From assembly GCA_963665295.1 (NCBI GenBank), contig OY762209.1, positions 256,001 to 320,000 of the forward strand: DNA of 64,000 nt, written 5' to 3'. Positions within the stretch are counted from its first letter, which is position 1; each line of letters starts with the position of its first letter. The DNA comes from Syntrophorhabdaceae bacterium. GTDB lineage: Bacteria > Desulfobacterota > Syntrophorhabdia > Syntrophorhabdales > Syntrophorhabdaceae. A model generated the notes under the pieces. The model had not been told where the DNA came from. It searched no databases and saw nothing but the letters and a program-made list of their open reading frames with translations. A program made the translations under genes and the position numbers. Positions 19,619-24,451 of this stretch are shown here, piece after piece.

Positions 19619-22600
19619 CTAATGGTTCACTAACTTCCAACCGGCATCGGTTACGGTCGCGAACAGCTGACCCCCCGTAAACGTTACGTTGCTCATATAC
19701 CAGACCGCGTTCGCGCCTGTCGAGTGTCTCCATAGCAGGTCGGGGTAGCCGTCGTTATTGAAGTCGCCTACGCCGGCTATCGCCCAGTTCAGATCGGCCT
19801 CGGTCGGGAGAGCGCCGGTCCCGATGAGCGTTGCTCCTGCGTCCATGTACCAGACCCTGTTCGCGCCTGTCGAGATGTTTCTCCACACCACGTCGGGATA
19901 GCCATCTCTGTCGAAGTCATCCCAACCGACAATCGTCCAGTTCGCATCGGCCTCGGTGGGGAGCGTCTTATCCCCTATGACCGTTACGCCATTCATATAC
20001 CAGACCGCGTTCGCGCCCGTCGAGTGTCTCCATAGCAGGTCGGGATGGCCGTCGTTGTTGAAATCTCTTACGCCGACTATCGCCCAGTTCGGATCGGCCT
20101 CGGTGGGGAGCGTACCGGTCCCGATCAGGGTAGCGGCATTCAAATACCAGACCCTGTTCGCGCCTGTCGAGATGTTTCTCCACACCACGTCGGGATGGCC
20201 GTCGTTATTGAAGTCATTCCAACCGACAATCGTCCAGTTCGCATCGGCCTCGGTCGGGAGCATCTGGTCCCCGATGAGCGTTACGCCATTCATATACCAG
20301 ACCGCGTTCGCGCCTGTCGAGTGTCTCCATAGCAGGTCGGGGTAGCCGTCATTGTTGAGGTCCCAAGGACTCGGCCGCTGCAGTACCATCGGCCGCATCA
20401 TGTCGTTCTCTTCATGGCTCAGGATGTGGCAGTGCCACACGTATTCCTGACCGAAGTTGTATAACCGGTTCGTCATCGGCGGCACAATATTACCCCCGTC
20501 CGTCGGGTCGATCTGCGAGAAGCCCATGTCGGAGCCCAGAGGGGTCGCCGGGTTCAAAGGACGAATGCTGTTGGGCAGAGAAAAAGGAACGCGGGGAACA
20601 ATCGGCCTCAAGGCAACGATGGTGTCTTCCAGAGGGCTCATCCTGACCGTGTCCTTCCATCCCAGTTCGTTGGGATCGGGCAGCCTGATAAATCCGTCCC
20701 AACCGACACGGTTCAGTACCTGCACGTCAAACAAGTGAAAATGAATCGGGTGGGTATCCACGCCGTTGTGGGTAATCCTCCAAATCTGCGTTTCGTTCGG
20801 ATTCACCACTTCAGTGGGGGGATCTACGAAGTTCTGGAGTACAAAATTCGCAATCGCCGCGTTGGTGAACGGCAATTCGAGGCCTAATTTGGCGCTCATC
20901 CGTCCGTAGTCATCAAAGGTCGCGCCCATTTCGTCATGGATGGCCTTCGGATCCATCGCGTAATTACTCACTATGGTGCCGTCAACCTTCTTGAAGCTGA
21001 TGGCGCCGTCGGAAATCCTCGAAATGCCCCAGTTGGGCCACGTAGCGGGGAAGGTGGTATTGTAGGCGGAGGTGTGGCCTGCGCCTGTGCCGTAAGCTGC
21101 CTGCCCCACGAGGATCGTCTCCTGGCCCGATGCGAAAGCGCCCGGCGTGGCCCCTGAGGCGAACGCGGCCTGAAGGGTGGCAAAGAAGGTCGTGTCGTAG
21201 TCATCCACCGGCGCCGAGCCACCCGCTCCCGCCACCGTGATCTGCATGACGGTCCTGATATTGGGTCCGGCACCTGCTGCAATGGCGGTGTAGCCGCCAA
21301 TGTCTGTCCGGTTCGGGGCGCCGGTATAGTAGTCATACTGGGGAACGAGGGCCGGGAACGCCGTAGGGGCGTCATTGTACAGAATCAGGGTCGCTCCCCC
21401 GTAATTCGTGAAATCAACGACCACATCCGCTCTTTCAGCAGGGCCGAGGAAAAGCGTACCACCACCCTGGTTCTGCTGAAGCACGTTCCCGAAGTTGAAC
21501 ATCGTGGGGTCGGTGTTCCACTGTACCGGGTGGTTGGGAAGCACTACAGGGGCCGGCAGAAAACCGCCCTCGCTTCCGACCTGGATAAACGCGGGACCTC
21601 TCTTCGCAGGATCAGGTACTCCGCCCTCCCTGCCGTCCGTAGGCCAGTTATTCGGGAATCCCCCGGTCAGCGCCGCGGGCACCATCCCCACTTCTGTCAG
21701 GGATGTGTATACCGCCGCAGTGGCGGTAGCCTGCACGCCTGCCCCCCCAGGCGGGGCGATGGTCACCGTGGGGGCTACCGTATAGCCGCTTCCCACGGTA
21801 TCAAGGGCAATGGCCGTAACAACACCGCCCGTCACTGTCGCGGTAGCGGTAGCGCCGGTTCCGTTGCCGCCGGCGATGGTCACCGCAGGTGCGGAGGTGT
21901 AGCCGGAACCGCCGCCGGTAACGGTGATGCCGCTTACGATCGGAGTCGCTCTGTAGAACTGGAGATTGAGGAACCTGTCATGCGCCGCGTTCAGGATCCG
22001 GAAACGATACTTCTGCGCCGACACTTGGTAGGTGGGGTAAACAGTGCCGTTGACCATCATGGTATCAAGAAATGCCTCGGCTCCCCACGATGGGTGGGGT
22101 GTGCCGGGCATTTGAGGCGGCTGCAACTCATTATAGTTGGGGTTGGCAGGATCAGCGTAGGGGTTTGCAACCGGCCCAAAATCGACGCAGAAGGGTTTCA
22201 CTGCGTCGGCGGACGACCCGCACACCGGGGTCGCCGGGAAAAACCATGGGCCATAATGCCAACGTCCGTACTGGTTGATCCCGCTCAAGTCTGGGTTATA
22301 AGGGTTCTGGGCGGGCATATATACGTGAGGCCACCAGAGGTCGCCCGTGACAGGCGTCGCCGTGGCGGGTTTCCCGGGGTTCGATCCCCATGCCCAGGTC
22401 GGGTCGGTAGTCATTACCGTAGCAGCGTTTACAAAGGTCTTGTCCTGGATAATGAGAGGAACCTGTGTGGAAGGGAGTGTTCCTGCGGCAAAGGTCCGAC
22501 CGTTGATAGTCCCACCCTGGACGAGGGCCGTCTCCACCGGGTCTTGTATCAGGTAGCCTGCCGCATTGCCCGCGTACACATTAAGACGGGTGATGCCCCA

Positions 22601-23512
22601 GGCATGGTCGTGATAGAACAGCAGCCTGGCGCTTTGCTGGTTGGTGTAGTAATAAGTCTGCGATCCCTGGCCGGGATTGTTGGTGGCGCCCGAAACAGCG
22701 CAGGTCGTCTGACCCGCGCAACCGGTGATGGTTGCTCCTGCCGCGGTAAACCACATGTCAGGCACATACGAAACGCTCACGCCCTTGCGGTAGGAAGTGG
22801 TCTCCGCCGCAGGCGTGATCCACTGGTGGGGAGTGCCGTCGCTGATCCATGGGGTGTGGCCTCCATGGAGATGGAGGTTCGCCCTGTTCTGGGTGAAGGT
22901 GCCGGTTATTGTCGAAATCGGAGCCTTTGTTACGGGGTCGTAGTTGATTTCAAAGCTCCCCGAACCCATTACGCTGCCGTCTACGGGAAGAAAAAGATCA
23001 CCCCCCGTCCCCGCGGGGAGGCTGTTGGTAAACTTGATGCGTACGGGCCTGTCTTTCTGGGCGATAATCAAGGGCCCAAGATAGTGGGGCACCAGCAGGT
23101 CGGCTCCGCCGTTCGTCTGGCGGTACCCTCTCAGCTTGGTGCCGCCGCTTGTGGCGGTCGTCTTATCCGAACCGCTGACGGCCGGAATTTGCGAGTGCAT
23201 CCTCTCTCGATACTGCACGAGCTCGATCTCATAATAATCGGACCCCGGATAGGTGCTCTGGTCCGCAACGGCAACAGGAATGCACTGTCCCAGATTGTTG
23301 GGAGTAGTGCACCCCAGGGGGGCCAGGGTATCCATGAATTTGGTGAACGCCGGACTGTTTGCCCAGTTCGGCGTAAGAAAATAGTCGGGAACGTAGTATC
23401 CGTTAGCCCCCACATCAAGCGCCTGCGCGGGAGGCGCCCCCTTTCCCCAAGGGAGGGCGGCTAATATCAGCGCCAGACCGATAACCACGGCAAAACCTCT
23501 ACTCTTCGACAT
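19619..23512 (-). CDS. large secreted multicopper oxidase with Gly/Thr-rich insert and C-terminal FG-GAP-like repeats
   Basis: All four Cu motifs ([28 protein letters not shown]); D(F/L)N.DG.PD repeats; signal peptide; GAGGAGG RBS. Confidence 0.93.
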
Positions 23513-23575
23513 TTCTTCCTCCTCTTCTAATGAAGTCTGTCAAGCATATAATTACTGCCCGTTAAGACTATGTTC

Positions 23576-23747
23576 ACGTTGTGGCGGCTTCCAGCCTTTT
23601 TGACCCCTCTATCCAACCTCTTTTGTTCTCCGGGCCTTATGCCCAACTTACGTTATACAGATCTAAAGGGGCGGTGGAAGTTGACCAAGCTTTGTCGTAC
23701 AGGCCTTATGCCTTCGAGGATCCACGATCCTCCTTCCACCACAACGT
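23576..23747 (-). ncRNA. putative IS110/IS1111 bridge (seek) RNA
   Basis: Closing stem ACGTTGTGG/CCACAACGT; two stem-internal-loop arms, each capped by a (A/G)GGC-ATAAG-GCC(T/C) hairpin; lies directly 3' of an IS110 transposase stop. Confidence 0.7.
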
Positions 23748-23753
23748 ATCTCC

Positions 23754-24015
23754 TTATGCCGCCCGGGCGCAGCTCATTTCTTCCGTAAACATCCTACTGT
23801 CGCGCATCAGTGCAAAGATCACCCTTATGAACTTGATGATCATGGCGCAGAGTGCCTCCTTCATTTTGAGCGGACGAAGCAGTCCTTTCCGTTTGTTCTC
23901 GTAATACTCCTTGAAGAACACGGTCCTATGGACTATCCTCATTGCCATGAAGTAGAGGCATCTCCTTAAGAGCCGCAGTCCTTTCTTGGAAACGATCTCT
24001 CGCCGGCCCCTTGAC
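23754..24015 (-). pseudogene. IS110-family transposase, C-terminal fragment only
   Basis: GRREIVSKKGLRLLRRCLYFMAMRIV...FFKEYYENK...ALCAMIIKFIRVIFALMRD; RuvC-like N-terminus absent. Confidence 0.8.
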
Positions 24016-24040: not shown

Positions 24041-24125
24041 CAACTCCGCCAACCTAAATATACCACAATTTCCTGCATATACGGTAAAGTAGGAGATTTG
24101 ATGAAGCGTCCCTGTATCGAAAATC

Positions 24126-24182
24126 GTCTTGAAAAGCAAGAATGTGTCTTGAAAAGCAAGAATGTGTCTTGAAAAGCAAGAA
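24126..24182. repeat. 20-bp tandem repeat x3 containing the dyad TCTTG-N5-CAAGA (candidate enhancer/UAS)
   Basis: GTCTTGAAAAGCAAGAATGT repeated; about 90-140 bp upstream of the sigma-54 promoter. Confidence 0.85.
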
Positions 24183-24422
24183 CGCAAGACGTTCGAGGGC
24201 GCCCGGTATAAGCTCCGGGGTCTTGTCTCCAACATGGAGTGGACGGGAGAAAAGTACGCGCCAAAACGACCTACAGGAGTACCTGTGCCATGTTTCCATA
24301 AACGATAAGGATGCAGTGAATCCTCCTTTAATGTTTGAAAACGGGGCTATTGACTGGAATAATGGTTCGGACGTCATAAGGAGGGGGAAAGCAGGTGATG
24401 CATTTGGGGAGGACGGCGTGAT

Positions 24423-24451
24423 TTGACAAAAACGCCCAAAATCCTTATAAT
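24423..24451 (+). promoter_or_regulatory. consensus sigma-70 promoter of the moxR-vWA operon
   Basis: TTGACA-N17-TATAAT, perfect consensus. Confidence 0.85.

What the first reader, a model, noticed from the sequence alone, without database searches (positions are those of the whole stretch)
23527..23760. Apparently intact bridge/seek-RNA-like structure retained from a truncated IS110
Seen on the minus strand, directly after the transposase-fragment stop: an outer stem ACGTTGTGG/CCACAACGT encloses two parallel arms. Arm 1 is GGTGGAAG..AGGC-ATAAG-GCCT..CTTCCACC and arm 2 is CCCCTTTA..GGGC-ATAAG-GCCC..TAGAGGGG. Each has about 19-20 nt on either side of the cap hairpin. An outward-facing TTGACA follows near the presumed right end. 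Established: IS110/IS1111 elements encode two-loop guide RNAs for target and donor binding, located 3' of the ORF in IS1111-type elements, with a -35 box at the right end. Inference: an orphan guide RNA with preserved pairing that could act in trans, or a new bridge-RNA scaffold class.
Basis: partly seen in the sequence, partly recalled or inferred. Interest (0 to 1): 0.75.

Follow-up and report, generated by a model that had tools for sequence, protein, structure and literature searches.

The report
Relic bridge RNA targeting ribosome-binding sites
This is the guide RNA of a broken RNA-guided jumping gene; its guide spells a ribosome-binding site, which explains why it sits right in front of a host gene, but the enzyme it needs is gone from this genome, so it is most likely an inert leftover of a known kind of system.

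Summary
The stems are real (z -4.9; 12 of 35 pairs with compensatory change in 64 relatives). The RNA lies in the right end of an IS110-family element with IS1111-like layout, of which only the last ~83 codons remain. Arm 1 is the target loop and arm 2 the donor loop. Across 100 distinct insertion sites of relatives, the arm-1 guide tracks the right flank base by base. The window's guide class reads AG|GAGG, a Shine-Dalgarno (SD) motif: 15 of 21 such insertions lie just before a start codon, against 4 of 66 for the sister class, which differs by one base. The window copy sits 9 nt before a multicopper-oxidase ATG, in the same direction. Action in trans is not supported: I found no intact cognate recombinase, no left end and no second RNA copy in the 98%-complete genome. 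The ORF remnant is decaying, and this RNA's own best fold hides its guide. Truncated copies that keep the RNA are common (16 of 132 loci). SD targeting is known from IS900/IS901, and this scan noted it on other DNA in at least three other genomes. Verdict: new variant of a known kind; locally a relic.

The parts
23754..24005 (-). C-terminal remnant (~aa 340-422) of an IS110-family recombinase gene; it lacks the RuvC DEDD domain, the coiled coil and the serine aligned to the IS621 catalytic serine; decaying
   Evidence: 77-78% identical to full-length P0001-P0005; 6 of 37 conserved residues changed against at most 4 in 53 full-length relatives; alignment to IS621
23576..23747 (-). Predicted bridge RNA, about 172 nt, closed by the outer stem
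   Evidence: model R1 scores it 165 bits, the only hit in the genome (the window was in the training set)
23673..23740 (-). Arm 1 = target-binding loop
   Evidence: guide-flank covariation; stems
23716..23723 (-). Right target guide (pairs with the top strand right of the core); predicts GAGG after the AG core, i.e. the SD motif
   Evidence: positions 2-8 above all 2000 shuffles in 100 distinct sites; 5 of 8 match the window's own flank
23690..23694 (-). Left target guide with the AG core (same sense as the left flank)
   Evidence: positions -5 and -3 covary in 51 sites, 0 of 2000 shuffles; position -4 shows no signal
23604..23671 (-). Arm 2 = donor-binding loop
23645..23655 (-). Right donor guide, complementary to the first bases of the left end (absent here)
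   Evidence: GTAAG with CTTAC in 51 of 53 complete elements; the two with a changed guide (L133, L135) have the matching change in the left end
23618..23626 (-). Left donor guide, same sense as the last bases of the right end
   Evidence: 97 of 100 share one guide/end pair; L011, L166 and L170 change both together
23522..23543 (-). Right-end terminus: TTGACA (-35 of the junction promoter), right copy of an 8-bp sub-terminal inverted repeat, AG core at 23523-23522
   Evidence: the end is the same in relatives; repeat 7-8 of 8 in 30 of 36 complete elements; natural right-left junction in L187
23510..23523 (-). Right half of the target: the SD (AG core plus GAGG) and, 9 nt after the core, the ATG of the next gene
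19619..23512 (-). Host gene, 1297 aa, with multicopper-oxidase domains and C-terminal FG-GAP repeats; same direction as the element
24057..24067 (-). Candidate extended -10 element just upstream of the remnant; it could drive a transcript through remnant, RNA and host gene (unverified)
   Evidence: seen by eye; not among the 3 sites of the promoter scan

Best explanation
The feature is the right end of an IS110-family bridge-recombinase element with IS1111-like layout (RNA 3' of the ORF; top-strand guide before bottom-strand guide in both loops). [quoted passage not shown] Its guide spells AG|GAGG, so it recombined at the 5' edge of the SD of the multicopper-oxidase gene, in the same direction, and left that gene its SD and spacing. 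Later the left end and about 80% of the ORF were lost. With no cognate enzyme or donor in the genome, the RNA is now an inert relic, at most part of a long 5' leader. Shown: stems, loop roles, ends, core and target class (comparative evidence); absence of partners in this assembly. Inferred: order of events, junction promoter activity, inertness.
For: Stem covariation. Right guide against flank in 100 distinct sites, and positions 5-8 still track inside the 73-site GAAG class (0.66/0.85/0.75/0.55 against 0.35/0.56/0.37/0.37 shuffled). Donor guides change together with the ends. Natural junction in L187. 15 of 21 GAGG-guide sites against 4 of 66 GAAG-guide sites lie before an ORF start. No intact cognate recombinase; single RNA hit; the one exact left-end 12-mer lies inside an unrelated ORF. 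ORF decay. Arm 1 costs 8.8 kcal/mol to form against a median of 1.6, and 4 of 63 relatives are as high. 16 of 132 RNA-bearing loci have a truncated ORF.
Against: The RNA keeps every consensus pair, and its two private A-to-G changes in arm 2 become G-U pairs. It has fewer departures than the ORF (3 of 127 against 8 of 88, p=0.054), which mild selection would also give. Two of 30 intact elements have as large a folding penalty, so misfolding in silico does not prove loss of function. The left junction and an empty site were not seen: three same-genus genomes carry other DNA here. The genome is 98% complete, and plasmids or phages may be missing. No expression data.
Confidence: 0.8

Rival explanations
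1. The remnant is kept because it now serves the oxidase gene, as leader or promoter region (read-through from a promoter near 24060, SD intact), not as a guide.
For: It runs in the same direction and directly abuts the RBS. The scan found no terminator-like site on the minus strand between 24180 and 23400. The right-end tail has 0 of 21 departures.
Against: TTGACA has no -10 at 16-18 nt because the SD lies there, and no minus-strand promoter was called between 24440 and 23400. The locus is not conserved in three same-genus genomes.
Confidence: 0.12
2. An orphan guide RNA that acts in trans with another IS110 recombinase.
For: Guides are readable and pairs are kept. Bridge RNA works in trans with its cognate enzyme, and read-through transcripts are functional (PMC11208160 passages; PMC13626964).
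Against: The other IS110 sequences found in the genome are a 70%-identical 72-aa fragment, a 27-29%-identical gene in two pieces that has its own different 3' RNA, and two incomplete genes of a further type. No donor substrate was found.
Confidence: 0.05
3. Co-opted anti-SD regulator: the target guide is complementary to SD sequences and could pair with the RBS of the downstream gene or of other mRNAs.
For: The guide is the reverse complement of GAGGAT, and an SD follows about 195 nt downstream on the same strand.
Against: In the predicted fold the guide pairs with its own upstream bases, not with the SD. Complementarity to an SD follows automatically from the DNA target. There is no conservation or expression evidence.
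Confidence: 0.03

Closest known systems
IS1111-group elements with seekRNA (ISEc11, ISPa11, ISKpn4; PMC11187229: passages and section 13 read)
   Same: RNA in the long non-coding region 3' of the ORF; top-strand target match precedes bottom-strand match; sub-terminal inverted repeat starting 7 bp inside the left end; junction promoter; natural reprogramming among relatives.
   Different: The repeat is only about 8 bp and 4 bp inside the right core (usually 11-13 bp and 3 bp). The donor guides sit in a simple second internal loop, whereas many IS1111 RNAs use a multi-loop (PMC11208160 section 12). The target is an SD motif. Phylogenetic placement among ISfinder IS1111 enzymes was not tested.
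IS621 / ISCro4 bridge recombinases (PMC11208160 passages and section 12; PMC13626964 passages and section 5; PDB 8wt6, 9t56)
   Same: DEDD RuvC domain plus C-terminal serine domain; two loops, one for target and one for donor; two-base core; about 170-nt RNA.
   Different: RNA in the right end, not the left; guide order reversed; core AG; both arms enclosed by one outer stem with no separate 5' hairpin; enzyme only distantly similar (E 3e-15).
IS900 / IS901 of Mycobacterium avium (seen only as a sentence and two reference titles in PMC2942039; further details recalled)
   Same: IS110-family elements (family recalled) that insert at translation-initiation signals upstream of genes.
   Different: They insert between SD and start codon (PMC2942039), and by recall in reverse orientation to express hed. 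This clade cuts at the 5' edge of the SD, runs in the same direction as the gene, and leaves SD and spacer with the gene.
ssr9 / MITEPpu9 orphan RNA modules of ISPpu9 (PMC12288879 passages)
   Same: An RNA module of an IS110 element found apart from an intact transposase, once with a 3' tnp fragment; AG core.
   Different: Those modules have both ends and intact transposase copies in the same genome, and form circles. The window copy has neither.

Membership tests
IS110 family (bridge recombinases) | DEDD RuvC domain plus Transposase_20 domain with catalytic serine | tested here: met
   Met by the full-length relatives: PF01548, PF02371, NF033542 above cut-off; serine aligned to IS621. The window remnant itself holds only the last ~83 aa (PF02371 E 0.015, below cut-off).
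IS110 family (bridge recombinases) | Non-coding-end RNA with a target-binding loop that covaries with the insertion flanks | tested here: met
   (100 right flanks, 51 left flanks)
IS110 family (bridge recombinases) | Donor-binding loop matching the joined ends | tested here: met
   (few variants: 2 on the right guide, 3 on the left guide); junction in L187
IS110 family (bridge recombinases) | Circle junction forms a -35/-10 promoter | tested here: inconclusive
   TTGACA in the right end and TACTAT in the left end would lie 17-18 nt apart; activity not testable
IS110 family (bridge recombinases) | RNA expressed, bound by the recombinase and needed for recombination | not testable with these tools
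   no RNA holder listed; bench test needed
IS1111 group | Long non-coding region and RNA downstream of the ORF | tested here: met
IS1111 group | Top-strand guide 5' of bottom-strand guide | tested here: met
   criterion from PMC11187229
IS1111 group | Sub-terminal inverted repeats (7-17 bp, usually 11-13; 7 bp left and 3 bp right extensions) | tested here: inconclusive
   8-bp repeat, 8 of 8 in 13, 7 of 8 in 17, 5-6 of 8 in 6 of 36 elements; offsets 7 and 4 bp from the cores. Short and imperfect, as also described for some IS110-group members with a 3' non-coding region
IS1111 group | Transposase falls in the IS1111 clade | not tested
   no ISfinder reference set at hand; the best 25 plasmid matches are 30-32% identical and, where annotated, named only as IS110-family transposases
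Non-autonomous (MITE-like) IS110 derivative | Both ends present and a cognate transposase elsewhere in the genome | tested here: not met
   no left end near the remnant or credibly elsewhere; no intact cognate ORF

The most novel reading that the evidence does not exclude
In this uncharacterised clade the SD-reading guide is an adaptation. Because the guide fixes orientation, each copy lands downstream of a host promoter in the sense direction, and so gets the read-through transcription of ORF and 3' RNA that IS621 needs for excision (PMC13626964), while the host gene keeps its SD. One base in the right guide (with a linked change in the left guide) toggles this lifestyle, and has done so at least three times on the recombinase tree, giving a natural paired experiment on why mobile elements choose a target. 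The window copy is a footprint of that strategy.
Probability: 0.3. Interest if true: 0.62.

Novelty: new variant of a known kind. Interest (0 to 1): 0.38.

Why it matters
The window copy matters little: it is probably dead. The clade behind it is useful. It offers about 50 intact elements with readable ends, core and both guides, and many naturally reprogrammed guides, so it is a ready candidate family of programmable recombinases with a compact right-end RNA of two simple loops. It also gives an RNA-level account of insertion at ribosome-binding sites, a habit reported for IS900/IS901 long before bridge RNAs were known. The one-base SD versus non-SD sister classes make the benefit of that habit directly testable.

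Tried and rejected
1) Rfam: no family over the region. 2) An exact left-end 12-mer at G000:C1:3281637, whose flank resembles the window's left guide, suggested a split element. Rejected: it lies within a 222-aa open frame on the other strand and has no further similarity to any complete element; one 12-mer hit in 11 Mb is about what chance gives. 3) Empty site in relatives: the three same-genus genomes carry other DNA after the neighbouring AAA-ATPase gene. Public contigs of four runs showed the same arrangement and no joint across the element; the best holders may be the source sample. 4) Expression: no RNA holder listed; no evidence either way. 5) Extra preference for true RBSs beyond the motif: 15 of 21 exceeds the 34% of all AAGGAGG sites in G000 (781 of 2300; p=0.0005) but not the 57% of sites outside crude coding cores (378 of 664; p=0.13). 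Motif plus loss of gene-breaking insertions is enough. The background comes from one genome only. 6) 'The right end evolved to rebuild the SD': rejected, because the right end is the same in SD and non-SD classes. 7) Viral contigs: 0 matches to the RNA pattern. 8) First folding-gap test (22 against 7.7 kcal/mol) was inflated by alignment register in arm 2 and was replaced. 9) The careful tree did not finish; the quick tree is used. 10) Paper searches for an RNA-based account of SD targeting gave nothing relevant; PMC4607514 and the Nop5 preprint passages did not bear on it. Supplements of PMC11208160 and PMC11187229 (element tables, target logos) were not read and may hold this clade or an SD logo.

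Full report
OBSERVATION. The 171-nt core folds far better than its shuffles (z -4.90, 0 of 200). Rfam has no match here.

THE ELEMENT. The ORF that ends at 23754 is the last ~83 codons of an IS110-family recombinase, 77-78% identical to five full-length 420-424-aa proteins. These carry PF01548, PF02371 and NF033542 and align weakly with IS621 and ISCro4. The remnant begins after the serine that aligns with the IS621 catalytic serine. Using one of these proteins and an RNA pattern I fetched relatives from named genomes, unnamed relatives and metagenomes. The RNA could be parsed in 132 loci plus the window; 6 further loci were dropped because arm 1 was missing or cut. The metagenome part of this set was selected by an exact RNA pattern, so conservation of those pattern positions is built in. 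Named hosts include Nitrospirota, Smithellaceae and Syntrophorhabdus records. Model R1 found the RNA in 13 of 96 genomes of the order and 4 of 151 of the phylum, own genome included. Left ends start after an AG core with CTTACTA, and right ends finish in GAAG plus the AG core. L187 holds a natural right-left junction with a single AG. TTGACA in the right end and TACTAT in the left end would then lie 17-18 nt apart, the junction promoter known for this family (PMC11208160 passages). An 8-bp sub-terminal inverted repeat matches at 7-8 of 8 positions in 30 of 36 complete elements.

STRUCTURE. On 64 sequences (window plus 63 representatives of 120) the consensus fold has an outer stem and two arms, each with an internal loop and a cap hairpin. 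98.5% of cells pair, and 12 of 35 pairs have a change on both sides, against 4.3 in shuffles and 3-5 in slid controls. The structure was derived from these sequences, and kin are related, so this is strong but not independent support.

LOOP ROLES. Of 133 RNAs, 104 had a right flank, 100 of them distinct. The reverse complement of the 5' strand of loop 1 matches flank positions 1-8 at 1.00, 0.99, 0.99, 0.96, 0.65, 0.75, 0.62 and 0.45, against 1.00, 0.94, 0.63, 0.91, 0.36, 0.51, 0.31 and 0.31 when shuffled (0 of 2000 at positions 2-8; nothing at 9-10). Positions 5-8 still track within the 73 sites of the main class. Guides reading GAAG have GAAG flanks in 73 of 73, and guides reading GAGG have GAGG in 19 of 22 (GAGA 2, GAGT 1). 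Four of five rarer guides match their flank; the fifth (L106) was mis-registered by my parser and matches by eye. The 3' strand of loop 1 covaries with the left flank at positions -5 and -3, not -4 (51 sites). In loop 2 the right donor guide pairs with the left end in 51 of 53, and both exceptions carry the matching change. The left donor guide changes together with the right end in three loci. So arm 1 reads the target and arm 2 the donor, each with the top-strand guide first, the order reported for IS1111-type seekRNAs (PMC11187229 passages).

THE TARGET IS AN SD MOTIF. The window's guide belongs to the GAGG class; with the core this spells AGGAGG. In the window the right end is followed by GAGG and, 9 nt after the core, the ATG of a 1297-aa multicopper-oxidase/FG-GAP protein on the same strand. 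15 of 21 GAGG-class sites have a start codon with an open frame 6-16 nt after the core, against 4 of 66 GAAG-class sites (1 and 7 sites dropped for under 80 nt of flank; Fisher p 6e-9, overstated because guides are shared among kin). The dropped GAGG site and one further site also lie before an ATG. The test passes 16% of random positions (803 of 5000). Against this, the rate is not significantly above the 57% seen for AAGGAGG outside coding cores of G000, so motif plus purging of gene-breaking insertions explains it. The right end is the same in both classes, so the gene keeps its SD through the geometry of the cut, not through an adapted end. On a quick tree of 48 transposases plus 5 outgroups the SD label needs 4 changes and the GAAG label 3, with at least 3 forced by well-supported branches (window not in the tree, direction not tested): the guide has been retargeted repeatedly. 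Left and right flanks are sometimes paired differently among copies of one element, so each flank was tested against the guide on its own.

IS THE WINDOW COPY ALIVE? Probably not. In the 5.5-Mb, 98%-complete, single-contig genome I found no intact cognate gene: only a 70%-identical 72-aa fragment, a 27-29%-identical gene in two pieces with its own different 3' RNA, and two incomplete genes of another type. R1 finds one RNA, and no credible left end exists. The remnant has 6 changes at 37 conserved residues, against at most 4 in 53 full-length relatives (26 have none). At the DNA level it departs at 8 of 88 conserved ORF positions, 3 of 106 RNA positions and 0 of 21 tail positions; the 44 reference elements average 2.0 and 1.4. 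The contrast (p=0.054) does not show selection on the RNA, though it does not exclude it. The window RNA's best fold hides the target guide in a 7-bp hairpin; forming arm 1 costs 8.8 kcal/mol against a median of 1.6, with 4 of 63 relatives as high, 2 of them among 30 intact elements. RNA left behind a truncated ORF is common: 16 of 132 loci, beside 50 intact, 6 full-length but broken and 60 cut by a contig end.

MECHANISM. Shown by comparison: ends, core, loop roles and target class. Taken from the literature: recombination through a circle, with RNA-DNA pairing on both strands (PMC11208160; PMC11187229; bioRxiv 10.1101/2025.10.25.684509, first fifth read). Inferred: insertion at this RBS, later loss of the left 80%, present inertness (0.8). 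The bolder reading (0.3): IS621 needs read-through from flanking DNA to excise (PMC13626964 section 5), so a guide that parks the element in the sense direction at an RBS would secure its transcription while sparing the host gene.

KNOWN AND NEW. It works like IS621/ISEc11 bridge or seek RNAs. It meets the IS110-family tests, and meets two IS1111-group tests, with the repeat borderline and the phylogeny untested. Insertion at translation-initiation signals is on record for IS900 and IS901 (sentence and reference titles in PMC2942039). My searches found no paper linking that habit to a bridge-RNA guide, but supplements were not read and most subscription papers are not searched. Earlier notes of this scan report SD-targeting IS110 elements in at least three other genomes (unchecked, not counted as support); none matched this protein or DNA. 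Verdict: a new variant of a known kind, locally a relic; interest 0.38.

Noticed in passing
window 24318-24332 (-): An unoccupied site that fits the window RNA's guides better (7 of 8 on the right) than the occupied site (5 of 8), 800 bp upstream on the same strand; no start codon at normal spacing. May be chance.
   Followed up: partly
window 24126-24182 and 24196-24250: A perfect 20-bp tandem repeat (2.8 copies) beside a 55-bp piece 82% identical to a DDE_Tnp_1_4 transposase present elsewhere in the genome: the spacer upstream of the remnant holds other mobile-element debris.
   Followed up: partly
window 24423-24451 (+): Perfect TTGACA-17-TATAAT promoter in front of the AAA-ATPase / VWA-CoxE gene pair; similar upstream DNA is seen in three same-genus genomes.
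   Followed up: no
L004/L117 (G000:C1:1811056-1813555), 3' end; also L100, L101, L102, L104, L113: A second, distant IS110 type with its own conserved two-arm 3' RNA; the copy in this genome is split by another element (IS3-like by my reading of the translation, not searched).
   Followed up: no
L091-L098 and L029-L040, 3' of the ORF: Further IS110 clades (27-35% identical to P0002) with related two-arm 3' RNAs, several with CCA before and TG after the cap hairpin, a motif pair I recall from TIGR RNAs; P0002 weakly hits the TIGR-Tas model (E 2e-7, below cut-off).
   Followed up: no
L106, L148, L181: An internally deleted element that keeps both ends, ORF codons 1-119 and an RNA with a different guide, at the same flank in three datasets: a candidate non-autonomous form. 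L271 and L283 hold similar internally deleted copies.
   Followed up: partly
alignment A1, 3' tail (window 23588-23596): A purine-rich tail can pair with the 3' strand of the arm-1 stem in many relatives, giving an alternative fold; it may be an extension of arm 2 or a switch.
   Followed up: partly
window 19619-23512 (-): The large multicopper-oxidase-like protein with C-terminal FG-GAP repeats has two paralogues in the genome.
   Followed up: no
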